From contig JAUJNA010000001.1 in assembly GCA_030446555.1 (NCBI GenBank), positions 238,634 to 302,633 on the forward strand: a stretch of 64,000 bases of DNA, written 5' to 3'. Below the pieces are notes generated by a model, which was not told the origin of the DNA, searched no databases, and saw only the letters and a program-made list of their open reading frames with translations. The first letter of the stretch is position 1. The number at the start of each line of letters is the position of its first letter. Of the stretch, positions 5,226 to 20,821 are shown piece by piece. The position numbers were made by a program, and so were the translations under genes. Source of the stretch: Chloroflexota bacterium (GTDB lineage: Bacteria; Chloroflexota; Limnocylindria; Limnocylindrales; CSP1-4).

Positions 5226-5375
5226 TCGCCGGGCGCTATGGGTGACGCTCGCCAGAAGCCGCGCCCAAGATGGCGGGAGGGTGCCCTGCGCTAGAATGGA
5301 CGTGCGCCCAGCGACCGTCCCGGACTGCCGGACGAGCGTGCTGGACGGCATCCCCCTCGTGAGGCACAGCGACAG

Positions 5376-5735
5376 GTGACGACCGGACTCTGGTACGTGC
5401 TCGGCTTCGCGTTCGCCGGCTTCGCGTTCGTGTTCCTCACCATCGGCCTCGCGTGGCTGATCAGTCATCGGCACAAGGGCGATCGCCATAAGGGTCTGCC
5501 CTACGAGTCGGGCATCGACACGTACGGTGATACCTGGGGCCGGTTCGGACTCTCCTTCTACATCTACGCGCTGCTGTTCGTCGCGTTCGACATCGAGGTG
5601 ATCTTCATCTACCTCTGGGCTCTCGCCTTCAACGACGTCCTGCTCGGTGGCTTCCTCAGCATGCTGGCGTTCGTGGGCATCCTCCTGCTGGGACTGGGAT
5701 ATGCGTGGCGCAAGGGCGTGCTGACATGGAAGTGA
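5376..5735 (+). CDS. nuoA: NADH-quinone oxidoreductase subunit A
   Basis: 119 aa, GTG start. Three TM helices with the NuoA/ND3 signature (…YESGIDTYGDTWGRFGLSFYIYALLFVAFDIEVIFIYLWA…). Confidence 0.9.
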   Translation: MTTGLWYVLGFAFAGFAFVFLTIGLAWLISHRHKGDRHKGLPYESGIDTYGDTWGRFGLSFYIYALLFVAFDIEVIFIYLWALAFNDVLLGGFLSMLAFVGILLLGLGYAWRKGVLTWK

Positions 5736-5738
5736 ACG

Positions 5739-6545
5739 ATGGATGAGAACAGGGACCCCGGGCGGGCGACCAACCTGACGCCATGGGGACAGCAGGTCTC
5801 GAACACGGGGGGCGACGAACCGGTGGCCGGGCGGGGCGATCCGCCCGCGATGGGGTCCGATCAACCGAGCCACGTCTCCGACGGGCTCGTCTCGGGGGCG
5901 CGCGACCGGGCGGTGATGGAGCCCATCGTCGTGCCCAACACAGCATGGGTGCCAGCCGATCCCGCCGCGTATGGCGGCGGACAGCCGCCCCATGTGGCGC
6001 ATCTCCGCGAGCTGGAGTTCGCCGACAAGTCCGACAACGGGCGCTGGGGAGCGCTGGATGCGATCCCCACCAAGGCGGACTACGTGCTCGATCTCATCCG
6101 CCTCAACAGCCTTTGGCCACTGCTCTCGGGTCTCGCATGCTGCGCCCTCGAGATGATGTCTGCGGCCACCAGCCGCAACGATATGGATCGCTTCGGGATG
6201 TTCCCATTCCGGGCCAGCCCCCGGCAGGCGGACGTCCTGATCGTGGCCGGGACCCTGACGACGAAGATGGCCGGTCCGCTGATCCGTCTCTGGGAGCAGA
6301 TGCCCGAGCCCAAGTGGTGCGTGGCGATGGGGGATTGCACCACATCGGGGGGTCGCTACAAGCGTTCCTACGCCACCGTGGAGGGCATCGACCGCATCAT
6401 GCCGGTGGACGTCTACGTGCCCGGCTGCCCGCCGCGCCCGGAGGGCCTCATCTACGGGATGATGAAGCTCCAGCAGCTCATCAAGGATCGGCGCGGTCAC
6501 TGGCCGGAGCGGGCGGTCGGCCCGACCGTGCCGACCGGCATCTGA
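5739..6545 (+). CDS. nuoB: NADH-quinone oxidoreductase subunit B (with about 100-aa Pro/Gly-rich N-terminal extension; start uncertain)
   Basis: The C-terminal 170 aa are canonical NuoB (…[17 protein letters not shown]…MGDCTTSGG…[12 protein letters not shown]…), including the N2 cluster cysteines. The ATG at 5739 overlaps the nuoA stop region. Internal alternative starts (M38, M61) are possible. Confidence 0.85.
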
Positions 6546-6549
6546 ATCG

Positions 6550-7209
6550 CTGACCGCCCAGGGGTTTGCCACGGACACCGCACTGAAGCGCCGTCTGGAT
6601 GATCGCCTGCGCGAGCACCTGCTCGGGCCCGCCACCGCGCGCCAGGACACCACCGAGATCCGCATCGCGCCGCAGAGCGTGACGCCGGTCATGACCGCAC
6701 TCCACGACGATGAGGCGTTCCGCTTCCCGATCCTGTCCGACCTGTGCGGAGTGGACACGGGCACGACCCTGGAGGTGGTCTACCACCTCTGGTCGGACGT
6801 CACGCCCGATTGGGTGCGCGCGTGATCGCCGAGGGGCTGTCGCGCGACGATCGCGCGCGTGCCCTCGGTCACCTTCCTGTGGAACGGAGCCGAGTGGGCC
6901 GAGCGCGAGGCCTATGACATGTTCGGCATCATCTTCGAAGGCAACCGGGACCTGCGACGCATCTACATGCCGCCCGATTACCAGAGCTTCCCGCTGCGCA
7001 AGGACTTCCTCCTGCCCGACGACGCGGCACGGTCGCCGGGCATGGGCATCCGCCACATCGAGCAGCCGTTCCCGCCGGGCGAGTCCCAGCGCCAGCCGGT
7101 GCTGCGCAAGGGACATGGTGCGAAAGCGGCGAACGTGGTCCAGGGTTCGTGGGCCGCCGAGCTGCGCTCGGGCGAGGATCCAGCGGTGGACCGCGAGGTG
7201 TCGCGATGA
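6550..7209 (+). CDS. nuoC: NADH-quinone oxidoreductase subunit C (disrupted: in-frame TGA at 6823-6825, no canonical start codon in frame)
   Basis: N-terminal NuoC region (…[72 protein letters not shown]…) and C-terminal region ([50 protein letters not shown]…) are in the same frame but separated by a TGA. The gene-caller piece 6859-7209 is the C-terminal fragment. The likely start, TTG at 6566, is out of frame. Confidence 0.75.
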
Positions 7210-8430
7210 CGGCCGATCCGGCGACCACCCGCTCACTCGACGACCCGGACATCATGGTGAACACGCCGGCGACCATCGTCGACGCCATCCCGCCCTACCC
7301 GCCGCGCACCGAGCGCGAGGCCGAGTTCTACGCCATGCGCGACGGCGAGATGCTCATCAATTTCGGGCCGCAGCATCCGTCCACCCACACGAGTGCTGCG
7401 CATCGTCCTCAAGATCGACGGCGAACGCATCGTGGACCTCGACCCGGTCCTGGGCTACCTGCACCGTGGCGTCGAGAAGATCTGCGAGAACGGGGACTGG
7501 CATCACGCCATCAGCAACTGCGACCCCCTCGAGTACGCCGCCTCCATGTTTTCGGAGGCGATGCCCGTGCTGGCCGCCGAGAAGCTGCTCGACCTGGAGG
7601 TGCCGCGCCGCGCGGAGTACATCCGCGTGCTCGCCTGGGAGCTCAACAGGGTCGCCAGCCACGCCCTCTTCATCGGCTGGCTGGCGCTCGACCTTGGTGG
7701 CCTGACGCCCATCCTCTATGGCTTCATCGAGCGCGACGAGATCGTGGAGATGCTGGCTGCGCTCACCGGGCAGCGGGTCCTCTTCAACTACCTGCGCATC
7801 GGTGGTGTGAACGGCGACCTGAACCACGACTTCATGAGCCGGCTCGGCGACTGGATGGGGCACGCCCTTCACCGCATCGAGGACCAGCAGAGGCTGCTCA
7901 ACGCCAACGAGATCTTCGTCCGGCGGACCAAGGGATTGGGGATCGTGGACCGCGACATCGCACGCCGCACCTGCCTCTCCGGGCCGGTGCTGCGTGCGAC
8001 GGGCGTCCCGTACGACGTGCGCCGAGCGCACCCCTACAGCGTGTACCCCGAGCTCGACTTCGAGATCCCCACCCGGGAGGAAGGCGACTCGTACGCTCGA
8101 TACCTGCTCCACCTCGACGAGATCAAGCAGAGCATCCGCATCATCGACCAGGTGCTCCACCAGATGCCGGACGGTCCGGTGATGGCCAAGATCCCGCGCC
8201 TCCTGCGCATCCCGCCCGGTCGCGCCTACATCTCGGTCGAGAGCCCGCGCGGCCAGTACTCGTGCTACGCGATGAGCGATGGATCGGACCAGCCGTTCCG
8301 TCTGCGCATCCACGACCCCTCGTTCTTCAACCTCCAGGCCGTCGGCCTCGTGATGCCCGGGAACCTCATCGCCGACACGATGGCGGTCATGGCCAGCCTG
8401 GATCCCATCATGGGCGGGGTCGACAAGTGA
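7206..8430 (+). CDS. nuoD: NADH-quinone oxidoreductase subunit D (apparent frameshift near 7388-7393)
   Basis: ATG at 7206 overlaps the nuoC stop (ATGA). The N-terminus …[11 protein letters not shown] is in frame 0 (ORF 7149-8465). The remainder, [32 protein letters not shown]…[28 protein letters not shown]…, is in frame +1 (ORF 7393-8430). The 49-kDa subunit signature is complete once the frames are joined. Confidence 0.85.
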
Positions 8431-8461: not shown

Positions 8462-9865
8462 GTGAGCGTCATCACGCGTCCCTGGTCACGGCTCACGCTG
8501 GCGGGCAAGATCGTCATCCCGCTGATCTTCCTGTTCGTGCTCCTGAACGTCCTGCTCATCGCGGGCTTCGCGACGGGGGTGCTGCCGTTCCTCGGCGGGC
8601 TCCTCCTGCGGATCATCAACGACAACGTCGACATCGTGCGCTTCATCGGCGCGGTGACGGCCCTGCTCCTGTTCACCGTGCCGGCCGCGTTCGTGATCAT
8701 CTTCATGGAGCTGAAGCTCATCGCCTTCGTCAACCTGCGGCTGGGCCCCAACCGGCAGGGGCCGTGGGGCGTCCTGAGCTCGACGCTCCACGGCTTGAAG
8801 GTCCTGGCCAAGGAGGACTTCACGCCCACCGGCGCGGACGTGCCTGTCTTCACGCTGGCGCCGGTGGTGACCTATCTCGGCGCGGTGATGACGATCATGG
8901 TCATCCCGTTCGCACCGGGCCTCTTCGGCATCGACCTGAACATCGGCCTGCTCTACTTCTTCGCGGTGGCCGGCCTCACGACGATCGGACTGATCATGGC
9001 CGGCTGGGCGAGCTTCAACAAGTACAGTCTCCTCGGCGGCCTGCGGGCAGCCGCAGCCATCATCTCGGCGGAGATCCCCCTGACGCTGGCAGCGGTGGGC
9101 GTGATCCTGCTGACCGGGACGCTGAGCCTGAACGAGATCGTCCTGCGCCAGGCGGGGAGTGCCCTCGATTGGTTCGTCTTCCAGCAGCCCCTCGGGTTCG
9201 TGGTCTTCTTCATCGCCGCCACCATCGAGGCGGGACGCACACCGTTCGACATGGCCGAGGCGGACAGCGAGATCGTGGCCGGCTTCGCGACCGAGTACAG
9301 CGGCATGCGCTTCGGCTTCTTCTTCTTCGCCGAGTACGTCAACCTCTTCATCATCTCGGCACTCACGGTGACGCTCTTCCTGGGCGGCTGGAACGCGCCG
9401 TTCGACATCGCCATCGTGCTCGACCGGCTGGGCATCGTCGTCGACCCCACACTCGACCCGGGCTCGCTGGGCATGGGCCTGCTGTGGCTGCTGCTGCTCG
9501 TCCCGCCTATCGCCATCCTGCTGCTGGCGCTGCCGTTCTGGCTCCTGCGGTCCGACTGGTCATTGCTGAAGTCGCTGGTCGTGGGCTTCCTGCTCTTCAA
9601 CCTGGTGGTGATGGTGCTCGTGGGCATCTGGGCCTACATGTCGTTCCCGTTCGTGGCCGGCATCTTCTGGTTCCTGGGCAAGACGTTCACGCTCGTTGCG
9701 CTCTTCGTCATCATGCGCGGCACGCTGCCACGGATCCGTATCGACCAGCTGATGGGCGTGGCATGGAAGTGGCTGATCCCCGCCGCGTTGCTCAACATCT
9801 TCATCACGGCGGCGGCCATCGTCATCCTGCGTGATCCGAGCCTCCCCTGGAACGGAGGCGGCTGA
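8462..9865 (+). CDS. nuoH: NADH-quinone oxidoreductase subunit H (extended, 467 aa)
   Basis: NuoH/ND1 motifs (…NLRLGPNRQGPWGVLSSTLHGLKVLAKEDFTPTGAD…EAGRTPFDMAEADSEIVAGFATEYSGMRFGFFF…) with extra N- and C-terminal TM segments. GTG start 31 nt after the nuoD stop. Confidence 0.9.
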   Translation: MSVITRPWSRLTLAGKIVIPLIFLFVLLNVLLIAGFATGVLPFLGGLLLRIINDNVDIVRFIGAVTALLLFTVPAAFVIIFMELKLIAFVNLRLGPNRQGPWGVLSSTLHGLKVLAKEDFTPTGADVPVFTLAPVVTYLGAVMTIMVIPFAPGLFGIDLNIGLLYFFAVAGLTTIGLIMAGWASFNKYSLLGGLRAAAAIISAEIPLTLAAVGVILLTGTLSLNEIVLRQAGSALDWFVFQQPLGFVVFFIAATIEAGRTPFDMAEADSEIVAGFATEYSGMRFGFFFFAEYVNLFIISALTVTLFLGGWNAPFDIAIVLDRLGIVVDPTLDPGSLGMGLLWLLLLVPPIAILLLALPFWLLRSDWSLLKSLVVGFLLFNLVVMVLVGIWAYMSFPFVAGIFWFLGKTFTLVALFVIMRGTLPRIRIDQLMGVAWKWLIPAALLNIFITAAAIVILRDPSLPWNGGG

Positions 9866-9866
9866 G

Positions 9867-10706
9867 ATGTCGTTCATGGATCGGATGCCCGGCTGGGGCC
9901 TGGTGAAGGGGGTCGCCTTCGGCATGGCCCAGATGCTCCGACCCAAGGTCACCGTCCAGTACCCCGAGGTGGTGCAGGAGATCTCCCCGCGGCACCGAGG
10001 CAGGTTGCTGCTCCTCTACGACGAGTTCGGCACGCTCAAATGCGAGACCTGCTTCCAATGCGCCGCCGCCTGTCCCATCGAGTGCATCGACATGGGCGGC
10101 GTGGACACGAAGAGCCGGTTCTACCTGCACTGGGGACCGGCCGAGCAATACGCCGAGCGACGTGAGGACTCCGCGCTCAGGCGCTCCGGACGGCCGGTGC
10201 CCGACCGCAGCTTCTCGGCCTGGCAGGGTATCGATCTGGCCCCACTCCAGGCGATCATCGCCGAGGAGCAGTACAGCCCCCGTCGGATGCTGCGCATCCT
10301 GGAGCGGACCCAGGAGACCTACGGCAACCTGCCGGTCGCGGCGATCCAGCACATCAGCGCCACGACGGGTGCCTGGTACAGCGAGATCTACGGCATCGCC
10401 ACGAGCTATCCCCATCTCCGCTTCGAGCCGGCGGCGAGTCACGAGATCGCGGTCTGCCGTTGCGCCGTCTGCTCGATGGCTGGTGCCGGCCGCATCCTCG
10501 CCGCTCTCGTCGACGCGCTGGGGACGGACCTTGACGGCGTCAGCCCGGACGGCCGCGTGCGGCTCACGAGGGCGGACTGCGGCGGCGAGGGAGGTCCTCT
10601 CGTCCTCGTCGACGGGCATCCTCAGTCGAGCATGACGCCTTTGCGGGCCACCGAGATCGCCGCCCACCTGCGGACGGGTCACCTACCCGCTGGTCCGCCG
10701 GCCTGA
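9867..10706 (+). CDS. NuoI-like (single [4Fe-4S] motif) fused to NuoE-like thioredoxin-fold [2Fe-2S] domain
   Basis: ATG at 9867 preceded by GGAGG. The N-terminal 100 aa are NuoI-like (…KVTVQYPEVVQEISPRHRGRLLLLYDEFGTLKCETCFQCAAACPIECI…) but carry only one CxxCxxCxxxCP motif. The C-terminal 150 aa are NuoE/24-kDa-like (…RMLRILERTQETYGNLPVAAIQHISATTGAWYSEIYGIATSYPHLRF…EIAVCRCAVCSMAGAGRILAALVDALG…VRLTRADCGGEGGPLVLVDG…). No cysteine codons occur in any frame across the junction (10100-10260). Confidence 0.8.
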   Translation: MSFMDRMPGWGLVKGVAFGMAQMLRPKVTVQYPEVVQEISPRHRGRLLLLYDEFGTLKCETCFQCAAACPIECIDMGGVDTKSRFYLHWGPAEQYAERREDSALRRSGRPVPDRSFSAWQGIDLAPLQAIIAEEQYSPRRMLRILERTQETYGNLPVAAIQHISATTGAWYSEIYGIATSYPHLRFEPAASHEIAVCRCAVCSMAGAGRILAALVDALGTDLDGVSPDGRVRLTRADCGGEGGPLVLVDGHPQSSMTPLRATEIAAHLRTGHLPAGPPA

Positions 10707-10708
10707 AC

Positions 10709-12029
10709 ATGCGCATCCTTCCCCTCGGCCGACGGGTGGCCGACGATGCTGCTGTCGCGCTCCGCGGATGGTGCGCCGGAGCCCACGCTCGCCTCAACCG
10801 CGGCACAGGGCGGCTGGGCCGCATGGCGCCGCGCTGCATCACCCGGATGAGTCCGGAAGAGGTCACCCGCCTCGTCCACGAGTCGGGCCTGCGCGGCCGG
10901 GGCGGCGCCGGCTACCCCACGGGTCAGAAGTGGCGAGCGTGCGCCGCTCGACCCGATGCCGTGCGCTACGCCGTCGCCAACGGGTTCGAGGCCGACCCCG
11001 GAGCGCAGCTGGACCGGACGCTCATGGAGCGGGACCCGCACGCCGTCTTGGAGGGCCTGGCCCTGGCGGCCTATGCCGTGCGTGCCCACCAGGCGTACCT
11101 GGCGGTCAAGGCATCGAGCACGCTCGCCGTGCGCCGGCTGCGCGACGCCCTTCGAGAGGCCGAGGCAGGGCGCTACCTGGGCACGGACATCCTGGGCTCC
11201 GGGTATGACCTGCACGTGGAGATCCGCGAGCTTGCCGGCTCGTTCGTCCTTGGCGAGGAGACCGTGCTGCTCAGAGCGCTCGAGAACAAGCGGGCCCAGC
11301 CCGACCAGCGGCCGCCGTGGCCGGCCGAGCGCGGTCTCTTCGACAAGCCCACCGTGGTCAACAACGTCGAGACCCTCGCCGCGGTGCCCGGCATCGTGGG
11401 CGACGGCGGGACGGCCTTCGGAGGGAGCGGCCTCCCGTCGGCACCCGGCACCACCCTCGTCCAGGTCAGTGGCGCGGTGCATCGACCCGGTATCGCCGAG
11501 GTCCCCATGGGCACCCCTGGCCCAGGTGCTGAGCCTGGCAGGCCTGTCGGAGGCGCCCAAGGCGGTGCTCGTCGGTGGTCCCTCGGGCGGCTTCCTGCCG
11601 CCAGGCGAGCTGGACGCGCCCATCGAGCCGGCGTCGCTCGCCGAGCGCGGTGCGGTCTGGGGCTCGGGGACGGTGGTCGTCGCGGATGCGCGGACGTGCA
11701 TCGTCGACATGGCCAGCCTCATGACGCGCTACCTGAACGACGAGGCATGCGGCAAGACGATCCCGTGCCGCATCGGCCTACGCCGCCTCGCCGAGATCGC
11801 GGAGCGCTTCACCGACGGTCGCCCCCGGCCCACCGACGCGCAGCTCGTGGACGACCTCGCCTCCGACACCCGGGACGGTGCGCTGTGTGCCCTGGAATCG
11901 ACCGCCACGAACCCGCTCCTGAGCGGGATGCGATACTTCATGCCCGAGTTCGAGGACCACATCATCCGGGGCCATTGCCCGGCCGGTGTCTGCCAGCCCC
12001 TCCGCGTGGCGGCCGGAGCCACTCGATGA
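10709..12029 (+). CDS. nuoF: NADH-quinone oxidoreductase subunit F (51-kDa, FMN/NADH-binding; apparent frameshift near 11515)
   Basis: ATG 2 nt after the nuoI/E stop. N-part in frame 2 (…SGLRGRGGAGYPTGQKW…FEADPGAQLDRTLMERDPHAVLEGLALAAYAV…LGEETVLLRALENKRAQPDQRPP…TVVNNVETLAAVPGIVGDGGTAF…VSGAVHRPGIAEVPMGTP). C-part in frame 0 (ORF 10956-12029: …LAQVLSLAGLSEAPKAVLVGGPSGGFLP…DEACGKTIPCRIGLRRLAEIAERF…CALESTATNPLLSGMRYF…). Confidence 0.85.
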
Positions 12030-12075: not shown

Positions 12076-14687
12076 ATGACCGACACCCTGCCCCAGATCC
12101 GCGACGCGGCTCCCGACACGGTGGTGGAGCGCCTGCTCGAGACGCAGGCACCGCAGCGTCCGATGTCGGCACCCACGTTCACCGTCGAGATCGACGGACG
12201 GCAGCTGACCGGGCGCGTGGGCCAGACCATCCTGGAGATCTGCCGTGACAACGGGATCGAGGTCCCGACCCTCTGCTACGAGCCGAAGCTGCCGGGCTTC
12301 GGAGCGTGCCGCATGTGCGTGGTGGAGGTGGATGGAGAAGGCCAGCCGCCCATCAGCTGCTCGCGGGCCGCGGAGGCCGGCATGGTGGTCCGCACGCAGA
12401 CGCCGCGCCTTCGCCAGGTCCGCAAGACGAACCTGGAGCTCATCTTCAGCGACCACAACGCCTACTGCCTGCCGCCCTGCCAGAACAAGTGCCCCAGCCA
12501 TATCGACATCCCGGGCTTCCTCAAGGCGAACACCGAGGGTGACCCGCGCGAATCGACGCGCATCTTCAAGCGCACCATCCCTTTCCCAGCGTGCTGGGCC
12601 GGGTCTGCCCGGCTCCGTGCGAGGAGCATTGCCGCCGCGACGAGGTCGACGAGGCGATCGCCATCCGCGACAGCCACCGCTGGGCGGGTGACCAGGTCCT
12701 GAAGGCCCAGGCACGGGGAGAGCGAGCGCCCGTGCCGTTCGACGTGCAGCCGCCGTCGGGCAAGCGGGTGGCGGTCATCGGCTCGGGACCGGCCGGCATG
12801 TCGGCGGCGTACTACCTGGCCATCGCCGGCCACGGCGTCACGGTCTTCGAGCGCGACCCGGCGCCCGGCGGCATGCTGCGCTACGGCATCCCGCAGTACC
12901 GCCTGCCCAAGGTCGAGGTGCTCGAGGCCGAGTACCAGGGAGTGTGGGATCTCGGCGTCAAGGTCGTCACCGACGCGGCCCTGGGACGCGACTTCACGCT
13001 GGACGACCTGCAGAACCAGGGCTTCGACGCGGTGTGCGTGGCCATCGGCTGCTACGACACGAACAAGCTGGGAGTGCCGGGCGAGGAGGCCGTGGGCGTC
13101 CTGGACGGCCTCGAGTATCTCCGTGTCGCGACCCTCGGCCTGCCCTTCCCGGGCCACGCCGGGACACGGGTGGTCGTCATCGGTGGCGGCTTCACCTCGA
13201 TGGACTGCACCCGCACCTCGGTCCGCCAGGGTGCCGCCGAGGTGACGCTGGTCTACCGCCGCGACATGAAGGACATGCCGGCCGCCAACGAGGTCCACGA
13301 GGCGCTCGAGGAGGGCGCCCGGGCCATCTTCCAGGCGGCTCCCACGCGCGTCATCACCGATGACCAGGACCGCGTGACGGGCGTCGAGTTCCAGCGCATG
13401 CGCCTGGGCGAGCCCGACGCGTCGGGTCGGCGACGCCCCGAGCCCGTGGCCGGCACCGAGTTCGTCATCGAGTGCGACCGCGTCCTGCTCGCCATCGGCC
13501 AGGGCCCCGACCTGACCTGGCTGGACCGCGGCGCGAGCGGCGTCAGCGCCACGAAGAACAGGCGCCTGGCGGCCGATGCGGTCACCTTCACGACCGGTCG
13601 CCCAGGGGTCTTCGGCACGGGCGACGTGCGCATCGGTGCCGCCACCGTGGTCCAGGCCAATGCCGAGGGCCGCCGCGCCGCCTACGCCATCGATGCCTAT
13701 CTCCAGGGTCAGGACCTCGACGCCATCAGGACCCGTCAGACCTTGGCTGAGCCGCAGCCCGAGTTCCTCTCGATCGTGCCCTACACGGGCGAGGTGAAGG
13801 AGCCGCGCTACCGCCTCAAGGCGATGGGCGCCGAGGACCGCAACCGCAGCTACGTCGAGTACGAGATCCCCTACACGCAGCAGGAGGCGATGGCCGAGTC
13901 GGCGCGCTGCCTCCAGTGCACCTGCGAAGCGATCGGGTACTGCGACCTGCGGCGCCAGGGCATCGAGTACGGGACCACGCTGAAGACCCTCGAGCCGCAG
14001 GCGCGTGGCGCCTTCAGCTACCGCAGCGTGTCCGAGAACCGCTTCACCGGCACGAACCACGACTACATCCGCGACGACAGCCACGCCTTCATCCTGCGCG
14101 AGCCGTCGCGCTGCATCGACTGTGGTCGCTGCGCCAACGTGTGCAAGGAGATCGTGGGCGCGGCCTGCTACGACTTCATGCGCACCGGGTTCGACACACT
14201 GGTCACGACGCCGCTCGACATGAGCCTCAACACCACGCCCTGTGTCTCCTGCGGCCGCTGCGCGGAGACGTGTCCCACCGGAGCGCTCATGCCCAAGCCG
14301 CGCGTGCTCGAGAAGTACGACGTGGACGAGACGCGCTGCATCCTGTGCGGCATCTGCGTCGACGCCTGTCCCTACGACGCCCTGCGCTGCGGCCCCGACT
14401 TCGAGCTCAGCCACGAGAGCCGAGCCGAGCCGATGATCGACCTGATGGCCATCAGCGCCATCGACCGGGACACCGAGATCACCTACGTGCGCCGGGAGCG
14501 TGACTGGCTGGAGCGCGCCCAGGCGTCGGGACGCGGACTGCCCGCCGGCCGGTTCCTGCCGGTGCTCCCGGCCACGTCGCAGGCCGGCAACGGCCACACG
14601 CACTCCAACGGACACGGCGCGGCTCACGGCGGCACGGGTGGCCACGGTCCCGGTGGGACCGGCGGTCCCGTCACGCACGGCCCCTAG
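12076..14687 (+). CDS. [2Fe-2S] ferredoxin / GltD-like FAD-NAD(P)H oxidoreductase / 2x[4Fe-4S] ferredoxin fusion, occupying the NuoG position (apparent frameshift near 12586)
   Basis: The N-terminus is a NuoG/HoxU-like 2Fe-2S domain ([52 protein letters not shown]). Next comes the GltD N-terminal cluster motif ([19 protein letters not shown] … [12 protein letters not shown], split between frames 1 and 0 at a C homopolymer). Then the glutamate-synthase-small-subunit core ([48 protein letters not shown]…) and C-terminal CxxCxxCxxxC(P) motifs ([35 protein letters not shown]). The molybdopterin-fold of NuoG is absent. Confidence 0.8.
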
Positions 14688-14701: not shown

Positions 14702-15379
14702 GTGGCTCTTCCTCAGACGATCCCGTTCCTGGGCTGGTCCTGGGACGACTTGATCTTCCTCGTCCTGGCAGGTCTGATGCTGGGCGGAGCGGTGATGGTC
14801 GTCATCGGGCGCAACATCATCCGCTCGGGTCTCTTCATGATCCTCTCGTTCGCGGCCCTGGCCGGCTTCTACGTGCTCCTGGGGGCACCCATCGTGGCCG
14901 CGGCACAGGTCCTCATCTACATCGGCGCCATCAGCGTGCTCATCCTCTTCGCCATCATGCTCACGCAGTCGAAGGCAGGTCCCTCGCGTCTCGTCTTCCA
15001 TCACCAGGCCTGGGCCGGTGCGATCGCCGCCATCGGGCTTGCGTCGCTCCTCGTGCTCGTGGTCCTCTCCACCGACTGGCCGGCGCAGGTGGGACAGGGC
15101 ACGGCGGCCGGCACGACCGCCGTCGCGCAGCTGCTCTTCTCGGAGTACGTGCTCGCGTTCGAGGTCGTGAGCGTCCTGCTTCTCGCCGCGGTGATCGGCG
15201 GCGTCTTCCTGGCCAAGCGCGAGGAGTCGCTCGACCCCGGCGAGCGGGCAGGCGACGAGCCCACGCTGGGACGCAACCAGTCACCACCCGTGCAGGCCGA
15301 CGGCCGTCCGTCCGCTTCGACTCCTCGGCAGGTCAGCGGGTCGGCGCGCTCCACGACCGCGATCTCGGAGCGGCCATGA
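14702..15379 (+). CDS. nuoJ: NADH-quinone oxidoreductase subunit J (with low-complexity C-terminal extension)
   Basis: GTG at 14702. NuoJ/ND6-like core (…[20 protein letters not shown]…). The C-terminal 60 aa are Pro/Ser/Arg-rich. The stop overlaps the nuoK start (ATGA). Confidence 0.8.
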
Positions 15380-15687
15380 CCCAGTCGCTGGACGCCTACC
15401 TGATCCTGGCCAGTCTCCTCTTCACGATCGGCACGTTCGGCTTCCTCGCCAGACGGAACGCCATCGCCATGCTCATGTCCATCGAGCTCATGCTCAATGC
15501 CGTGAACCTGGCCATCGTGGCGTTCGGCGCGTACGTTCCCACGCTGGCCGAGGATGGCGCGCTGATCGCGCTCTTCGTCATGGCCGTGGCGGCGGCCGAG
15601 GCCACCGTGGGGCTGGCCATCATCATCGCCATCTACCGTAACCGGAGGACGCCGCTCGTCGACGAGTACGCGTCGATGCGCGAATGA
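15376..15687 (+). CDS. nuoK: NADH-quinone oxidoreductase subunit K
   Basis: 103 aa, [46 protein letters not shown]…, the NuoK/ND4L signature. Confidence 0.9.
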
Positions 15688-15756
15688 GGGCACGAACGTC
15701 GCGCGACCGGAGGACGACCCGCGTCGATCGACCTGCCGTGATGCGGGGATAAGAGG

Positions 15757-17763
15757 GTGCCCTTCTTCACCGAGGCGCCCGAGACGGTCGCGACCGCGGG
15801 TAGCTCGCTCGATCAGGCGCTCGTGCTGGCGCTCCTGGCGCTGCCGCTGGCCGGCTTCGGGCTGACGGCGCTCGTCGGGAGGCGGATGGGCGACAAGGCC
15901 TGGGCCATCGCCGTACCGGCCATCGTCCTCGTCTGGCTGGCCGCGCTGTACCTCATCTTCCAGACGCTGGTCGCGGGAGCGTACGGCGAGGCGGGCTTGC
16001 ACTTCCGCCTGTACGAGTGGATCCCGGCGGGCGACTTCACGGTCGAGGTGGACTTCGGCGTGGATGCCCTCACCGCGGTGATGCTCATCGTCGTCACGAC
16101 CGTGGGCATGCTCGTCCACGTCTACTCCATCGGCTACATGGCGCACGATCCCGGCCGATGGCGCTTCTTCGCCTATCTCAACTTCTTCATGTTCAGCATG
16201 CTCCTGCTGGTCCTGGCCGACAACTTCCTGCTGCTCTTCGTGGCATGGGAGCTCGTGGGGCTGTCGAGCTACCTGCTCATCGGATTCTGGTATCGCCGGC
16301 GCAGCGCGGCTCTGGCGGCCAAGAAGGCCTTCATCGTCAACCGTGCGGGCGACTTCGGCTTCGGGCTCGGGATCATGGCCATCTGGACGACCGTGGGCAC
16401 TCTGGACTACTCGGACGTGTTCCAGCTGCTGCCCGCTCAGGTGGAGAGCGGGGCCATCGAGGGTTGGCAGATGACCGGCATCTGCCTGCTCCTCTTCGCG
16501 GGCGCCATCGGCAAGAGCGCGCAGTTCCCGCTCCACGTCTGGCTGCCCGACGCGATGGAAGGGCCGACCCCGGTGAGCGCCCTCATCCACGCCGCCACGA
16601 TGGTCAACGCGGGGGTCTACCTCGTGGCACGCGCCAACCCACTCTTCGCGCAGTCGCCTGAGGCGCTGCTCGTCGTGGCGCTCGTCGGCACGTTCACCTG
16701 CGTCATGGCCGCCGCCATCGCGTTCACGCAGAAGGACATCAAGCGCGTGCTGGCGTACTCGACGCTGAGCCAGCTGGGATACATGTTCATGGCTCTGGGC
16801 GTGGGCGCCTTCGTGCCGGCCATCTTCCACCTCGTGACGCACGGCTTCTTCAAGGGTCTGCTCTTCCTTGGCTCGGGCTCCGTGATCCATGCGGTCCACG
16901 AGGAGCAGGACATGGATCGCATGGGTGGCCTCTGGCGCCGCATCGGCATCACCCACGTCACCATGCTCATCGGCTCGCTGGCCATCGCGGGCATCCCGCC
17001 GCTGGCGGGTTTCTTCAGCAAGGACGAGATCCTGGGAGAGTCATTCAAGCTCGGCTTCGGCTGGGTCTGGGCGATCGGCATCATCGTCGCGGTCATGACC
17101 GCGCTCTACATGTTCCGGCTGATGGGCAAGACCTTCTACGGGCCCAGCAACGTCGACCCGCACACCGAGCCCCGGATCCACGAGTCGCCCATCTCCATGA
17201 CCGGCCCACTCATGCTCCTGGCGGTGCCGTCCGTGCTGATCGGCTTTGCGCTGGGCTGGCCGCCCGAGAGCGGCCTCATCCACCAGTGGCTCGCGCCGGT
17301 GTTCCATCCGCTGGAGGAGGCGCTCCACCATGGCGCCGCCGACTATCAGCTGCTGGGCATCGATGGGTTCCTGCTGGGCGCGAGCGTCGCGGTCTCGGCG
17401 GTGGGCATGGTCGTCGCCTGGCGCCTCTTCGGCTTCCTCAGCACCATGGCGCCCCGCCCGGCGCTGGTCGCGAGCCTGACCGCCCGGCTCAACGGGCCGT
17501 ACCGCATCTCGCGCGACAAGTGGTACTTCGACGACCTGAACCACCTGCTCTTCGTGCGCGTCGGGGGAGCGGTCGCGCGCGCCCTCTGGTGGTTCGACGT
17601 CCACGTCATCGATGGCGCCGTGAACGGCGTCGCGTCGCTCACCCAGGGCACCGGTCACGGGCTGCGCCAGATCCAGACCGGCCGCGTCCAGAACTACGCC
17701 CTGGGCATCGCCGGCGGCCTGCTCGTCATCGCGGTGGGGTATCTCTTCATCGTGGCGCGCTGA
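15757..17763 (+). CDS. nuoL: NADH-quinone oxidoreductase subunit L
   Basis: 668-aa antiporter-like subunit (…WELVGLSSYLLIGFWYRRRSAALAAKKAFIVNRAGDFGF…) with the long C-terminal amphipathic helix region. GTG at 15757 preceded by AAGAGGG. Confidence 0.9.
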   Translation: MPFFTEAPETVATAGSSLDQALVLALLALPLAGFGLTALVGRRMGDKAWAIAVPAIVLVWLAALYLIFQTLVAGAYGEAGLHFRLYEWIPAGDFTVEVDFGVDALTAVMLIVVTTVGMLVHVYSIGYMAHDPGRWRFFAYLNFFMFSMLLLVLADNFLLLFVAWELVGLSSYLLIGFWYRRRSAALAAKKAFIVNRAGDFGFGLGIMAIWTTVGTLDYSDVFQLLPAQVESGAIEGWQMTGICLLLFAGAIGKSAQFPLHVWLPDAMEGPTPVSALIHAATMVNAGVYLVARANPLFAQSPEALLVVALVGTFTCVMAAAIAFTQKDIKRVLAYSTLSQLGYMFMALGVGAFVPAIFHLVTHGFFKGLLFLGSGSVIHAVHEEQDMDRMGGLWRRIGITHVTMLIGSLAIAGIPPLAGFFSKDEILGESFKLGFGWVWAIGIIVAVMTALYMFRLMGKTFYGPSNVDPHTEPRIHESPISMTGPLMLLAVPSVLIGFALGWPPESGLIHQWLAPVFHPLEEALHHGAADYQLLGIDGFLLGASVAVSAVGMVVAWRLFGFLSTMAPRPALVASLTARLNGPYRISRDKWYFDDLNHLLFVRVGGAVARALWWFDVHVIDGAVNGVASLTQGTGHGLRQIQTGRVQNYALGIAGGLLVIAVGYLFIVAR

Positions 17764-19289
17764 TGGACCTCGGCGGACTGCCCATCCTCAGCGCGGTCAT
17801 CTTCACGCCGCTCATCGGCGCGCTGCTCATCGCGCTCGTGCCGCGCGAGCGCGAGGATCTGACGCGCTGGCTGGCGCTCGGCACGGCGCTCGTCACCTTC
17901 GGGCTGTCGCTGCTCCTGCTGCCGGGATTCGACCCGACGGCGCCCGGCTTCCAGTACGTGGAGACGGCCGACTGGATCCCCGCCTTCGGCATCCAGTACA
18001 AGGTCGGCGTCGATGGCATGGCCCTGGTCCTGGTGCTGCTGACCACGACGCTGACGTGGATCAGCATCCTGGCCAGCTTCGGGCCCATCAGGTCGCGGCT
18101 GAAGGAGTACATGATCTCCTTCCTCATCCTCGAGGTGGGGATGATCGGCGTCTTCCTTGCCCTGGACCTCTTCCTCTTCTACATCTTCTGGGAGATGGTG
18201 CTGGTGCCGATGTACCTGATCATCGGCATCTGGGGCGGCGCGAACCGCATCTACGCCACGCTCAAGTTCGTGCTCTACACGCTGGTCGGCTCGCTGCTCA
18301 TGCTGGTGGCCATCCTGGCCGCGGCGTTCAGCTTCCAGTCGGCCACCGGCTCGTGGGCGGGCGCGTTCGACTTCGAGCAGCTGCGCGGATTCGGGTTCGA
18401 CCCGACGCTCCAGTTCTTCGCCTTCGGCGCCTTCTTCCTGGCATTCGCCATCAAGGTGCCCATGTTCCCCTTCCATACCTGGCTGCCTGACGCGCACGTG
18501 GAGGCACCGACCGCCGGGTCGGTCATCCTGGCCGGCGTCCTGCTCAAGCTGGGCGGCTATGGGATCATCCGGTTCTGCCTGCCGCTCTTCCCCGACGCGG
18601 CGCAGCAGTGGGCGCCGCTCCTCATCGTCCTGTCGCTCATCGCCATCATCTACGGCGCCATCGTGGCCATGGTCCAGCCCGACCTCAAGAAGCTGGTCGC
18701 GTACAGCTCGGTCAGCCACATGGGCTTCGTGACCCTGGGTATCTTCATCTTCCAGCCACAGGGGATGCAGGGCGCGATCCTCCAGATGGTCAACCATGGG
18801 ATCATCACCGGTGCCCTCTTCCTGTGCGTGGGCGTGCTCTACGAGCGGACGCACGATCGGTCGATCGCCCGGATGGGCGGCCTCGCGGCGTCCACCCCGG
18901 TCTACGCCGCCATCTTCGGCTTCTTCATGCTCGCCTCGCTCGGGCTCCCCGGGATGGCCGGCTTCGTGGGCGAGTTCCTGGTCCTGCTCGGCACCTTCGA
19001 CCACTCGCCGATCGCCGCGGCGGTCGCGTCGGTCGTCGTCATCCTCGCCGCCGGATACCTCATGTGGATGTACCAGCGAGTCGTCTTCGGCGAGCTGTCG
19101 GACTTCCTCAAGGGCGTGGGTCACCACCTGACCGACATGGACCGCCGGGAGCTGGTGACGCTGACGCCGCTGGTGGGCTTGACGCTCGTCTTGGGGGTCG
19201 CCCCCGCCCTCGTCCTGGACCTGATCCAGATGCCGGTCGGTGAGGTGCTCGCTCGCGTCGGGGGCTCCCTCGTGGGAGCGGCCCCATGA
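17763..19289 (+). CDS. nuoM: NADH-quinone oxidoreductase subunit M
   Basis: ATG at 17763 overlaps the nuoL stop. NuoM/ND4 motifs (…FPFHTWLPDAHVEAPTAGSVILAGVLLKLGGYG…). Confidence 0.9.
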   Translation: MDLGGLPILSAVIFTPLIGALLIALVPREREDLTRWLALGTALVTFGLSLLLLPGFDPTAPGFQYVETADWIPAFGIQYKVGVDGMALVLVLLTTTLTWISILASFGPIRSRLKEYMISFLILEVGMIGVFLALDLFLFYIFWEMVLVPMYLIIGIWGGANRIYATLKFVLYTLVGSLLMLVAILAAAFSFQSATGSWAGAFDFEQLRGFGFDPTLQFFAFGAFFLAFAIKVPMFPFHTWLPDAHVEAPTAGSVILAGVLLKLGGYGIIRFCLPLFPDAAQQWAPLLIVLSLIAIIYGAIVAMVQPDLKKLVAYSSVSHMGFVTLGIFIFQPQGMQGAILQMVNHGIITGALFLCVGVLYERTHDRSIARMGGLAASTPVYAAIFGFFMLASLGLPGMAGFVGEFLVLLGTFDHSPIAAAVASVVVILAAGYLMWMYQRVVFGELSDFLKGVGHHLTDMDRRELVTLTPLVGLTLVLGVAPALVLDLIQMPVGEVLARVGGSLVGAAP

Positions 19290-20821
19290 GCCAGAACGAC
19301 CTGATCGCGCTCCTGCCGCTCGTCGTGGTCGTGGGACTTGCCATGGCCGTCGTCATCATCGACATGATCGTCCCCGACCGCGATGACCTCGTGGGCGTCG
19401 TGGCGAGCGGCGGCCTCCTCCTGACGCTCGCCGTGATCGCGGTGGCGGGTCCACTGCCGGGAGGCATCGGACTGCTGCCCGTCGAGGGAGAGCAGCTCTT
19501 CGAGAGCGCCACTGGCGGTGGCGTGCTGGTACGCGACCAGCTGACGGCCTTCCTGGACCTGCTCTTCGTGATGATCGGCCTGCTCAGCCTGCTCTTCGCG
19601 GCCGACTACCTGAAGCCGCGCAACCTGCCCATGGCCGAGTTCGCGGCGACGCTGCTCTTCGCCATCAGCGGCGCGATGCTCCTGGCCGGCGGGCGCGACC
19701 TGCTCATCCTGTTCCTGGGCCTGGAGCTGCTGGTCCTGCCGGGCTACATGCTGGCCGGCTACGCGAAGCGCGATGGCCTCTCGACCGAGGGAGCCGTCAA
19801 GTACTTCCTCCTGGGCAGCTTCTCGAGCGCCATCTTCCTGTTCGGCCTGGCGCTCGTCCTCGGCTTCACGGGCTCCACCCGTGTGGAGGAGATCGCCATC
19901 GTCCTGGCCGGGGTAGCGGCAGGCGACGCGCCGCTCTCCTTGGGATTGGCTATGGGCCTGGCGCTGCTGACCACGGGGGTGGCCTTCAAGATCGCCGCCG
20001 TGCCCTTCCACTACTGGACGCCTGACGCCTATCAGGGCTCGCCCACGCCCGTCACAGGGTATCTCTCGGTCGGGCCGAAGATCGCCGCGTTCGCGCTCAT
20101 CCTGCGCCTCTTCGTCGACGCGCTCGGTCCCTTGAAGGCCGACTGGCTGCCGTTCGTCATCGTGCTGGCGGCTATCACGATGACCCTCGGCAACCTCGTC
20201 GCGATCACGCAGGACAACATCAAGCGGATGCTGGCGTACAGCTCCATCGCTCACACCGGGTACATCCTGGTGGGGTTGGCCGCGTACGCGGCGGCGCCCG
20301 TCCGCTCATATGCCGAGCAGGCCGGTCTCGAGGGTGTGCTGTTCTACAGCGCCGTGTACGCCTTCATGAACCTGGGCGCCTTCGCCTGCGTGGCGGCGCT
20401 CCAGCGCCGGCCGGGGGTCACCAGCCAGATCGCCAGCTTCGCCGGCCTGGGCCGGCGGGCGCCGCTACTGGGCGCGGCCATGTTCCTCTTCCTCCTGTCG
20501 CTCACCGGCATCCCGCCGCTGGCCGGCTTCTGGGCCAAGTGGTACGTGATCCAAGCGGCGCTGCAGGCCGGTGGCCTCGTCGCATGGCTTGCCGTGCTGA
20601 TGATGCTCAACGCCACGGCCGCGGCGTTCTACTACCTGCGCGTGGTCGTCTACATGTACATGCGCGAGGCGCCCGATGCCGCCCGGCCGGTCTCGCTGGG
20701 CGCCTTCACCCGGGTCGGCTTGGTCGTCTCGGCGGCGTTCACGATCCTCATCGGGGTGGCGCCTCCGGTGACCACCGCGGTCATCGACATGGCGAGGCAG
20801 GCGGCACAGGCGCTGCTTTGA
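19286..20821 (+). CDS. nuoN: NADH-quinone oxidoreductase subunit N
   Basis: ATG at 19286 overlaps the nuoM stop (ATGA). NuoN/ND2 motifs (…VPFHYWTPDAYQGSPTPVTGYLSVGPKIAAF…). It is the last gene of the operon. Confidence 0.9.
   Translation: MSQNDLIALLPLVVVVGLAMAVVIIDMIVPDRDDLVGVVASGGLLLTLAVIAVAGPLPGGIGLLPVEGEQLFESATGGGVLVRDQLTAFLDLLFVMIGLLSLLFAADYLKPRNLPMAEFAATLLFAISGAMLLAGGRDLLILFLGLELLVLPGYMLAGYAKRDGLSTEGAVKYFLLGSFSSAIFLFGLALVLGFTGSTRVEEIAIVLAGVAAGDAPLSLGLAMGLALLTTGVAFKIAAVPFHYWTPDAYQGSPTPVTGYLSVGPKIAAFALILRLFVDALGPLKADWLPFVIVLAAITMTLGNLVAITQDNIKRMLAYSSIAHTGYILVGLAAYAAAPVRSYAEQAGLEGVLFYSAVYAFMNLGAFACVAALQRRPGVTSQIASFAGLGRRAPLLGAAMFLFLLSLTGIPPLAGFWAKWYVIQAALQAGGLVAWLAVLMMLNATAAAFYYLRVVVYMYMREAPDAARPVSLGAFTRVGLVVSAAFTILIGVAPPVTTAVIDMARQAAQALL

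What the first reader, a model, noticed from the sequence alone, without database searches (positions are those of the whole stretch)
9867..10706. NuoI truncated to one [4Fe-4S] motif and fused in frame to a NuoE-like [2Fe-2S] thioredoxin-fold domain
The N-terminal 100 aa match NuoI up to the first CxxCxxCxxxCP motif (CETCFQCAAACP). The second ferredoxin motif, which would bind cluster N6b, is absent. There are no cysteine codons in any frame across 10100-10260, so a single indel cannot explain the loss. The same ORF continues into a complete NuoE/24-kDa-like domain (CRCAVCSMAGAG…ADCGGEGGP). Such a fusion would rewire the canonical N6a/N6b relay. Alternatively it marks a deletion that joined two genes.
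Basis: seen in the sequence. Interest (0 to 1): 0.65.

Follow-up and report, generated by a model that had tools for sequence, protein, structure and literature searches.

The report
Split NuoI flanking an inserted NAD(P)H module
The "truncated NuoI fused to NuoE" is real and conserved across a whole class of Chloroflexota, but the missing half of NuoI is not lost: it sits at the end of a gene two positions downstream, because a three-gene NAD(P)H-oxidising module was inserted into the nuoI gene of a complex I operon.

Summary
ORF 9867-10706 (279 aa) joins the N-terminal half of NuoI, with one CxxCxxCxxxCP motif, to a NuoE-like domain.

It is not a local deletion or an assembly artefact. Thousands of full-length homologues exist, and at least 592 species-level genomes carry it. 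They are labelled Chloroflexota or Candidatus Limnocylindria, apart from a few short contigs. The operon is always nuoA-B-C-D-H-[I_N::E]-F-G*-J-K-L-M-N.

The interpretation that cluster N6b is lost is wrong. G* (12076-14687) is a NuoG-like subunit with an inserted GltD-like domain. It ends in a third CxxCxxCxxxCP motif (14337-14372) followed by GPDFELSHE, and this matches only the second half of NuoI.

Joined in silico, the two halves align without gaps to Paracoccus NuoI (E 1.9e-24). They keep all 8 Cys and fold as NuoI in AlphaFold2.

E, F and G* score closer to the StnABC/NfnABC ("Bfu") transhydrogenases than to canonical NuoEFG. They lack the parts that the Stn and Nfn structure papers tie to ferredoxin reduction in bifurcation.

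My reading: a Stn-like cassette was inserted into nuoI of an 11-subunit-type operon. The split ferredoxin domain then holds the new NADH/NADPH input module on the quinone module. Assembly, cluster binding and substrates are inferred, not shown. Eight full-text searches found no description of this.

The parts
5367..8430 (+). nuoA (5367-5732), nuoB (5844-6545), nuoC (6619-7209) and nuoD (7206-8430, with an apparent frameshift near 7390)
   Evidence: tblastn of the L001 operon proteins against the window; Pfam for NuoD. NuoB keeps the N2 ligand pattern CC...C...CP.
8462..9865 (+). nuoH (467 aa, unusually long)
   Evidence: PF00146, E 3.5e-99.
9867..10706 (+). I_N::E fusion ORF, the finding itself (279 aa)
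9867..10133 (+). I_N: the N-terminal half of NuoI (aa 1-89), with motif 1 CETCFQCAAACP at 10041-10076
   Evidence: NuoI models and PDB NuoI chains match aa 10-86. C59, C62, C65 and C69 are 100% conserved.
10134..10223 (+). Nearly invariant linker GPAEQYAERREDSALRRSGRPVPD... (aa 90-119). Its start aligns to the 'PGERY' segment of the NuoI inter-motif hairpin.
   Evidence: Conservation; alignment to M. smegmatis NuoI 8e9g_I.
10224..10703 (+). NuoE/StnA-like thioredoxin-fold [2Fe-2S] domain. Invariant Cys at 10455-10472 (CRCAVC) and 10578-10580 (C238); the fourth canonical Cys is absent.
   Evidence: PF01257 at 84.9 bits. Best PDB hits are 9bov_C, 9n5u_C (NfnC) and 8oh5_A. Cys conservation.
10709..12029 (+). 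NuoF/StnB-like FMN subunit, core domains only (apparent frameshift between 11515 and 11559)
   Evidence: Pfam Complex1_51K and NADH_4Fe-4S in two frames; tblastn. The intact 440-aa orthologue is closest to 9bov_B, 8oh5_B and HydB.
12076..14687 (+). G*: a NuoG-like N-terminal [2Fe-2S] domain, a GltD-like FAD/NADPH domain, a 2x[4Fe-4S] domain and I_C (apparent frameshift near 12585)
   Evidence: Pfam; tblastn. The 871-aa orthologue aligns to 9bov_A, 8oh5_C and 9n5u_A over aa 38-767.
14313..14456 (+). I_C: the C-terminal half of NuoI ([48 protein letters not shown]), with motif 2 at 14337-14372
   Evidence: NuoI models match only their second half: TIGR01971 positions 72-116 of 121, NF004539 positions 92-136 of 162. 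Invariant in 62 orthologues. Coordinates.
14702..20821 (+). nuoJ (from 14702; end about 15260-15380, not resolved), nuoK (15376-15687), nuoL (15757-17763), nuoM (17763-19289), nuoN (19286-20821)
   Evidence: tblastn; synteny in 84 related loci.

Best explanation
**What it is.** This is a split nuoI gene. In an ancestor of the class Limnocylindria (Chloroflexota), a three-gene NAD(P)H-oxidising cassette landed inside nuoI of an 11-subunit-type complex I operon (A-B-C-D-H-I-J-K-L-M-N). The cassette is related to StnABC/NfnABC and has the same gene order: E-like, F-like, then NuoG+GltD-like.

**Where it landed.** The insertion point is the indel-tolerant hairpin between the two cluster-binding motifs of NuoI.
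- The 5' half of nuoI became fused in frame to the first cassette gene (I_N::E, the finding).
- The 3' half became fused to the end of the last cassette gene (G*::I_C). There it replaces the FdhF-like C-terminal domain that StnC carries.

**How it most likely works (inferred).**
- The two halves pair into one 2x[4Fe-4S] ferredoxin fold.
- In that fold each cluster takes three Cys from one motif and the fourth from the other. N6a and N6b would therefore each be ligated by both polypeptides.
- This would hold E and G*, with F bound to them, on the quinone module.
- Electrons would run from NADH to FMN and then N3 (both in F), then through the Fe-S chain of G* to N6a, N6b and N2 (in NuoB), and finally to quinone.
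- A second entry would run from NADPH through FAD and two [4Fe-4S] clusters of the GltD-like domain.
- The module lacks the ferredoxin-side domains of Bfu enzymes. I therefore read it as a non-bifurcating, proton-pumping NAD(P)H:quinone oxidoreductase.
For: **I_C is the missing half (shown).**
- I_C alone hits NuoI models only over their second half.
- For TIGR01971 the scores add up: I_N 47.4 bits, I_C 45.5 bits, joined 97.4 bits over model positions 2-116 of 121.
- The join aligns with no gaps to Paracoccus NuoI 8qby_I, residues 15-143 of 163, E 1.9e-24.
- All 8 Cys and both Pro are invariant across 28 joins and 31 canonical NuoI sequences.
- AlphaFold2 of the join gives pLDDT 78.8, with the 10-residue blocks over roughly residues 50-80 and 90-110 averaging above 90. 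The top 49 Foldseek PDB hits are all NuoI, TYKY or NdhI.

**Co-occurrence and synteny (shown).**
- In 86 loci the only CxxCxxCxxxCP motifs are I_N, one in the ferredoxin domain of G*, and I_C. Sixty-nine loci have all three.
- No intact nuoI lies within 10 kb of the fusion gene in any locus.
- The order A-B-C-D-H-IE-F-G*-J-K-L-M-N is fixed wherever the contig allows.
- A second subfamily at 50% identity has the same split.

**Cassette origin (shown).**
- F scores 378 bits to 9bov_B and 8oh5_B against at most 292 bits to any NuoF.
- G* aa 38-767 scores 533 bits to 9bov_A and 493 bits to 8oh5_C (StnC).
- E scores best against 9bov_C, NfnC and StnA.

**Other points.**
- NuoB keeps the N2 ligands.
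- 11-subunit complex I is reported in Chloroflexi (PMC3144371).
Against: - No experimental or multimer-model evidence shows that the halves assemble or bind clusters.
- The AlphaFold2 model used an alignment of canonical NuoI sequences, so it leans towards that fold. The single-sequence run failed (pLDDT 35).
- The joined sequence stays below the curated NuoI cut-offs (97.4 against 113.05 bits).
- The E domain has a non-canonical Cys set, and the type-2 subfamily keeps only three Cys. Its cluster may be altered or lost.
- I could not check whether the same genomes also carry a canonical nuoI elsewhere.
- The window's own copies of nuoD, nuoF and G* carry frameshifts. If those are real, this particular operon would be decaying.
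- Use of NADPH, and the absence of bifurcation, are inferred from domain content only.
Confidence: 0.8

Rival explanations
1. NuoI has truly been reduced to a single [4Fe-4S] cluster, and the fused NuoE [2Fe-2S] domain takes over part of the N6a/N6b relay.
For: The ORF has only one motif. The fusion is conserved. The E domain has an unusual but invariant Cys set that could suggest a new role.
Against: A NuoI-specific second half is always encoded at the end of G* and is invariant. A lone CxxCxxCxxxCP motif supplies only three ligands to its own cluster; this follows from the established ligand pattern of 2x[4Fe-4S] ferredoxins. The join reproduces a full NuoI without gaps.
Confidence: 0.05
2. 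Artefact or pseudogene. A deletion, mis-assembly or sequencing error in this genome joined nuoI to nuoE.
For: Three neighbouring genes in the window (nuoD, nuoF, G*) do carry frameshifts, so the assembly is error-prone.
Against: The same 275-283 aa architecture occurs in 2593 proteins from independent NCBI, JGI, ENA and Logan assemblies and in at least 592 species genomes. It has invariant residues and fixed synteny. The fusion ORF itself has no frameshift relative to its orthologues.
Confidence: 0.02
3. The halves do pair as proposed, but the module works as a Bfu-type bifurcating or confurcating enzyme, or as a transhydrogenase coupled to the proton-motive force. It would couple the NADH and NADPH pools to quinone or the membrane potential rather than simply oxidising either nucleotide.
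For: E, F and G* are closest to the bifurcating StnABC and NfnABC enzymes. Two nucleotide sites, FMN and FAD, sit in one wired Fe-S system (PMC10482914).
Against: F lacks the N-terminal [2Fe-2S] domain and the C-terminal 2x[4Fe-4S] domain of StnB and HydB. The Stn and Nfn papers tie these to ferredoxin reduction. The E domain's cluster ligands are altered.
Confidence: 0.15

Closest known systems
NuoI / Nqo9 / TYKY (NDUFS8), the 2x[4Fe-4S] subunit of respiratory complex I that carries N6a and N6b
   Same: I_N plus I_C together reproduce its sequence without gaps (Paracoccus 8qby_I residues 15-143). This covers all 8 Cys, both CP motifs, the N-terminal YPE...PRxRG segment, the GPxFE tail and the predicted fold. 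The operon position, between nuoH and nuoJ, is also the same.
   Different: It is encoded as two pieces about 4.2 kb apart. Each piece is fused to another subunit (NuoE-like and NuoG/GltD-like). Neither piece, nor the join, reaches the curated NCBIfam cut-offs.
StnABC (Sporomusa-type Nfn) and NfnABC, the Bfu-family electron-bifurcating transhydrogenases (PDB 8oh5, 9n5u; PMC10482914, PMC12018979)
   Same: The gene order is the same: E-like, F-like, then NuoG+GltD-like. G* aligns over aa 38-767, including the GltD-like insertion. F and E score best against the StnB/NfnB and StnA/NfnC chains.
   Different: F lacks the N-terminal [2Fe-2S] domain and the C-terminal ferredoxin-like domain of the B subunit. 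G* lacks the FdhF-like C-terminal domain and carries I_C in its place. E is fused to I_N and has altered cluster ligands. The module sits inside a nuo operon, whereas the Stn and Nfn enzymes were purified as three-subunit complexes without membrane subunits.
Canonical 14-subunit complex I N-module (NuoE, NuoF, NuoG)
   Same: An FMN/NADH subunit, a thioredoxin-like [2Fe-2S] subunit and a NuoG-like N-terminal Fe-S domain would feed NuoI, then NuoB, then quinone.
   Different: The genes lie between the halves of nuoI rather than between nuoD and nuoH. G* has a GltD-like FAD/NADPH domain and no molybdopterin-like domain. The sequences score closer to Bfu enzymes than to NuoEFG.
11-subunit complex I (NUO11) with alternative donor modules, and mbx-like operons in which a gltD-related flavoprotein takes the place of NuoI (PMC3144371, PMC4758237)
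   Same: The operon backbone A-B-C-D-H-I-J-K-L-M-N is the same. There is also precedent for a GltD-type flavoprotein docking at the NuoI position.
   Different: Here NuoI is kept but split, and the donor module is covalently tethered to both halves. Neither paper describes this arrangement.

Membership tests
NuoI (complex I subunit I) | Two CxxCxxCxxxCP motifs in one polypeptide | tested here: not met
   The ORF has one motif. The second lies in another ORF at 14337-14372.
NuoI (complex I subunit I) | Collinear match to the whole NuoI model or structure, with all 8 Cys (tested on the join of the two pieces) | tested here: met
   TIGR01971 positions 2-116 of 121. Gapless alignment to 8qby_I residues 15-143. 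8 Cys and 2 Pro invariant.
NuoI (complex I subunit I) | Score at or above the curated NCBIfam cut-off | tested here: not met
   The fusion scores 46.0 bits and the join 97.4 bits, against a cut-off of 113.05 for TIGR01971. All equivalog models are also below cut-off.
NuoI (complex I subunit I) | NuoI fold | tested here: met
   AlphaFold2 of the join gives pLDDT 78.8. The top 49 Foldseek hits are NuoI, TYKY or NdhI, with rmsd 1.8 A over 97 columns against E. coli NuoI. Caveat: the alignment used was made of canonical NuoI sequences.
NuoI (complex I subunit I) | Binds clusters N6a and N6b and bridges NuoG to NuoB | not testable with these tools
   Needs EPR or a structure.
NuoE / PF01257 thioredoxin-like [2Fe-2S] | Pfam domain above the gathering score, over its full length | tested here: met
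   84.9 bits against 24.8, positions 2-144 of 145.
NuoE / PF01257 thioredoxin-like [2Fe-2S] | Four canonical Cys ligands (Cx4C...Cx3C) | tested here: not met
   The fourth Cys is absent (ADCGG--EGGP). An extra invariant C199 is present. The type-2 subfamily keeps only CxCxxC.
NuoE / PF01257 thioredoxin-like [2Fe-2S] | NCBIfam NuoE equivalog cut-off | tested here: not met
   NF005722 scores 65.2 bits against a cut-off of 141; TIGR01958 scores 61.2 against 142.4.
Stn / Nfn-Bfu (BfuABC) transhydrogenase | An A/StnC-type subunit with a NuoG-like Fe-S domain and an inserted GltD-like FAD/NADPH domain | tested here: met
   G* aa 38-767 aligns to 9bov_A (8.7e-159), 8oh5_C (1.4e-146) and 9n5u_A; Pfam.
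Stn / Nfn-Bfu (BfuABC) transhydrogenase | A B subunit with an N-terminal [2Fe-2S] domain and a C-terminal 2x[4Fe-4S] ferredoxin-binding domain | tested here: not met
   F is 440 aa and matches only residues 124-526 of the 584-aa StnB-type chains. The role of these domains is taken from PMC10482914.
Stn / Nfn-Bfu (BfuABC) transhydrogenase | Flavin-based electron bifurcation with ferredoxin | not testable with these tools
   This is a biochemical property.
Respiratory complex I (Nuo) | Membrane arm and Q-module genes present, with N2 ligands in NuoB | tested here: met
   A, B, C, D, H, J, K, L, M and N were found. NuoB has CC...C...CP.
Respiratory complex I (Nuo) | Canonical gene order with E-F-G between D and H, and a NuoG with a molybdopterin-like domain | tested here: not met
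   E-F-G* lie between the halves of nuoI. G* has no such domain.

The most novel reading that the evidence does not exclude
A class-wide variant of complex I in abundant soil and freshwater Chloroflexota. Its electron-input module would be a Stn/Nfn-type unit with two nucleotide sites (NADH at FMN, NADPH at FAD), held on the quinone module by a NuoI ferredoxin domain assembled from two different polypeptides. That would give a proton-pumping NADPH/NADH:quinone oxidoreductase, or a transhydrogenase linked to the proton-motive force. It would also preserve a genomic record of how an 11-subunit complex I acquired an input module.
Probability: 0.45. Interest if true: 0.85.

Novelty: new variant of a known kind. 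Interest (0 to 1): 0.72.

Why it matters
**How complex I gains an input module.** Which donor modules feed 11-subunit complex I, and how such modules were recruited, are open questions (PMC3144371). Here the recruitment event is preserved in the gene structure: an operon inserted into a gene, with in-frame fusions at both ends.

**An unusual docking principle.** If the halves pair as inferred, each of two [4Fe-4S] clusters would be ligated by two polypeptides. I found no description of such an arrangement for complex I.

**A possible second substrate.** The GltD-like domain suggests that NADPH could feed a proton-pumping complex I directly. That would change how energy and redox budgets are modelled for Limnocylindria, a class seen here in many soil and freshwater metagenomes.

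**An annotation problem.** Current pipelines label the fusion only as "subunit E" and find no NuoI. These genomes would therefore be scored as lacking a core complex I subunit.

Tried and rejected
- **Single-sequence AlphaFold2 of the joined halves** gave pLDDT 35 and was uninformative.
I used canonical NuoI sequences as the alignment instead, which biases the model towards the NuoI fold.
- **Context of the nearest unsplit NuoI-like representatives** (P0190, P0191). The contigs were too short, or the gene stood alone next to MoaA/XdhC-like genes. This says nothing about the ancestral operon.
- **Long representatives of 500-750 aa that looked like I_N::E::F fusions.** They are frameshifted or garbled gene calls, and several begin at the internal Met76.
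- **Hits labelled Acidobacteriota, Dormiibacterota or Caenarcaniphilales.** All are on contigs of 3-5 kb. I treat them as probable binning errors, not as evidence of wider spread.
- **A hidden second motif in another frame of 10100-10260.** There is none.
- **Eight literature searches** on NuoI/NuoE fusion, split NuoI, Limnocylindria or CSP1-4 complex I, Stn with complex I, and GltD with the N-module found no description.

Full report
**1. The observation**

ORF 9867-10706 (+) encodes 279 aa. It starts 1 nt after the nuoH stop and ends 2 nt before the nuoF start. Residues ~10-86 match the first half of NuoI: NCBIfam NF004536 positions 14-88 of 180 at E 2e-15, TIGR01971 positions 2-66 of 121, and PDB chains 8qby_I and 7awt_I. 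Residues 128-268 match PF01257, the NuoE-type thioredoxin-like [2Fe-2S] domain, over positions 2-144 of 145 at 84.9 bits.

The ORF contains one CxxCxxCxxxCP motif. The whole 64-kb window has only three such motifs in six frames.

Two details in the finding are inexact. Cysteine codons do exist in other frames of 10100-10260, although none forms a motif. The NuoE domain lacks its fourth canonical Cys ligand and has an extra Cys instead, in the sequence CRCAVC.

**2. Not an artefact**

A search of 5.8 billion proteins found 2593 homologues. The best 120 are all 271-283 aa and 63-84% identical. They come from independent NCBI, JGI, ENA and Logan assemblies, and those carrying an organism name are mostly labelled Chloroflexota or Candidatus Limnocylindria. 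Databases call them only "subunit E".

All four motif Cys and four Cys of the E domain are 100% conserved. The linker between the domains is nearly invariant.

In all 84 loci compared (the 80 kept from that scan plus four fetched earlier) the gene order is nuoA-B-C-D-H-[fusion]-F-G*-J-K-L-M-N wherever the contig allows.

A second subfamily at 50% identity has 540 proteins at E below 1e-20. The few that carry an organism name are labelled Limnocylindria or Chloroflexota. It has the same operon plus one extra NmrA/SDR-like gene.

**3. Where the other half of NuoI is**

In relatives, G* is one ORF of 794-871 aa. It contains a NuoG-like N-terminal [2Fe-2S] domain, a GltD-like domain (Fer4_20 plus an FAD/NAD(P)H-binding fold) and a 2x[4Fe-4S] domain.

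G* ends with a third CxxCxxCxxxCP motif followed by [13 protein letters not shown]. In the window this segment lies at 14313-14456.

On its own, this segment hits NuoI models only over their second half: TIGR01971 positions 72-116, NF004539 positions 92-136 of 162, and ndhI positions 94-145 of 183. Generic ferredoxin families score several orders of magnitude worse. The segment is invariant in 62 unique orthologues and is also present in the type-2 subfamily.

Joining I_N (aa 1-89) to I_C in silico gives these results:
- The bit scores add up: 47.4 plus 45.5 gives 97.4 for TIGR01971, over model positions 2-116.
- The join aligns without gaps to Paracoccus NuoI, residues 15-143 of 163, at E 1.9e-24.
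- All 8 Cys and both Pro are invariant with canonical NuoI sequences.
- The AlphaFold2 model has pLDDT 78.8, with most of the region around the two motifs above 90. Its top 49 PDB matches are NuoI, TYKY or NdhI, with rmsd 1.8 A over 97 columns against E. coli NuoI. That model used an alignment of canonical NuoI sequences, so it is a consistency check and not independent proof.

Across 86 loci, no other motif of this kind and no intact nuoI occurs within 10 kb of the fusion gene.

The break lies in the inter-motif hairpin. This is the most length-variable part of NuoI in the alignment.

**4. What was inserted**

The NuoF-like protein is closest to 9bov_B, 8oh5_B (StnB), HydB and NfnB, at about 375 bits against at most 292 bits for any NuoF. 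It covers only their core, residues 124-526 of 584.

G* aa 38-767 aligns to 9bov_A, 8oh5_C (StnC) and 9n5u_A (NfnA). In those proteins the C-terminal domain begins at the point where I_C begins in G*; the Stn paper describes that domain in StnC as FdhF-like.

The E domain scores best against 9bov_C, NfnC and StnA.

The Stn paper describes StnC as NuoG-like plus GltD-like, with an inactive FdhF-like C-terminal domain. It describes the C-terminal ferredoxin-like domain of StnB as the ferredoxin site (PMC10482914). The NfnABC paper gives the NADPH, FAD and Fe-S path to the FMN (PMC12018979).

The gene order E-like, F-like, G-like equals stnA-B-C. Canonical nuo operons place E-F-G between D and H. 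Here those genes lie between the halves of nuoI, which fits insertion into an 11-subunit-type operon. Such operons are reported in Chloroflexi (PMC3144371).

**5. Mechanism**

Shown here:
- the homology of both halves to NuoI;
- their strict co-occurrence and conservation;
- the affinity of the cassette to Stn/Nfn-Bfu enzymes;
- the loss of the Bfu ferredoxin-side domains;
- intact N2 ligands in NuoB.

Inferred:
- The halves pair. From the established ligand pattern of 2x[4Fe-4S] ferredoxins, each cluster would take three Cys from one motif and one from the other. N6a and N6b would therefore each bridge the two polypeptides and tether E, F and G* to the quinone module.
- Electrons from NADH (via FMN) and NADPH (via FAD in the GltD-like domain) would converge on the Fe-S chain of G*, then pass through N6a, N6b and N2 to quinone.
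- I favour a non-bifurcating NAD(P)H:quinone oxidoreductase. A coupled transhydrogenase-type function is the main functional rival.

**6.

The fusion is real. The claims that N6b is lost, that the relay is rewired, or that a deletion joined two genes are not supported.

**7. Novelty**

Eight full-text searches found no description of a split NuoI or of this operon. The nearest published parallels are:
- 11-subunit complex I with unknown donor modules;
- mbx-like operons in which a gltD-related flavoprotein replaces NuoI (PMC4758237).

I rate this a new variant of a known kind.

**8. Caveats**

- There is no biochemical or multimer-model evidence.
- The joined sequence scores below the curated NuoI cut-offs.
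- The cluster ligands of the E domain are non-canonical.
- I could not check for a second nuoI elsewhere in these genomes.
- The window's copies of nuoD, nuoF and G* are frameshifted. Two of the three sites lie in short C or T runs. Several long-read MAG loci show the same kind of split ORFs, while other relatives have intact ORFs. I therefore read the frameshifts as probable assembly errors.

Noticed in passing
window ~7388-7393 (nuoD), 11515-11559 (nuoF), ~12579-12591 (G*): Three frameshifts split genes that are single ORFs in relatives (407, 440 and 871 aa). The nuoF and G* sites lie in short C or T runs. Several long-read MAG loci show the same kind of split. These are probably assembly errors rather than pseudogenes, but that is unproven.
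   Followed up: partly
window 10455-10472 and 10578-10580; type-2 proteins such as P0154: The NuoE-like domain has a non-canonical ligand set. CxCxxC plus one distal Cys are invariant in type 1, and the usual fourth Cys (CLGxC) is deleted. Type 2 keeps only CxCxxC. The [2Fe-2S] cluster may use a swapped or non-Cys ligand, or may be lost.
   Followed up: partly
window 8462-9865 (nuoH): The type-1 NuoH is 459-467 aa, against 336 aa in the type-2 operon. In the window copy the Pfam match breaks off at about residue 347, before a hydrophobic stretch. This could relate to docking of the altered peripheral arm.
   Followed up: no
L085:14650-16035 and L086:14793-16175: Type-2 operons carry an extra gene of about 460 aa between G* and nuoJ. 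It has NmrA, epimerase and 3-beta-HSD (SDR-like) Pfam hits. From memory, this recalls the NDUFA9-type accessory subunit of mitochondrial complex I.
   Followed up: no
window ~14520-14684 (C-terminal tail of G*): After I_C, G* ends in a variable, low-complexity Gly/His-rich tail (…[27 protein letters not shown]). It is poorly conserved among orthologues and absent in type 2.
   Followed up: no
public annotations of P0004, P0039, P0040 and others: Annotation pipelines name the fusion only 'NAD(P)H-dependent oxidoreductase subunit E', 'NuoE' or 'formate dehydrogenase subunit gamma'. The precomputed Pfam field lists only PF01257. These genomes would therefore be scored as lacking NuoI.
   Followed up: yes
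P0136, P0150, P0169, P0189 (representatives): Apparent I_N::E::F proteins of 500-750 aa, and gene calls that start at the internal Met76 (MGGVDT…), are frameshifted or garbled predictions from error-prone assemblies. They are not additional architectures.
   Followed up: partly
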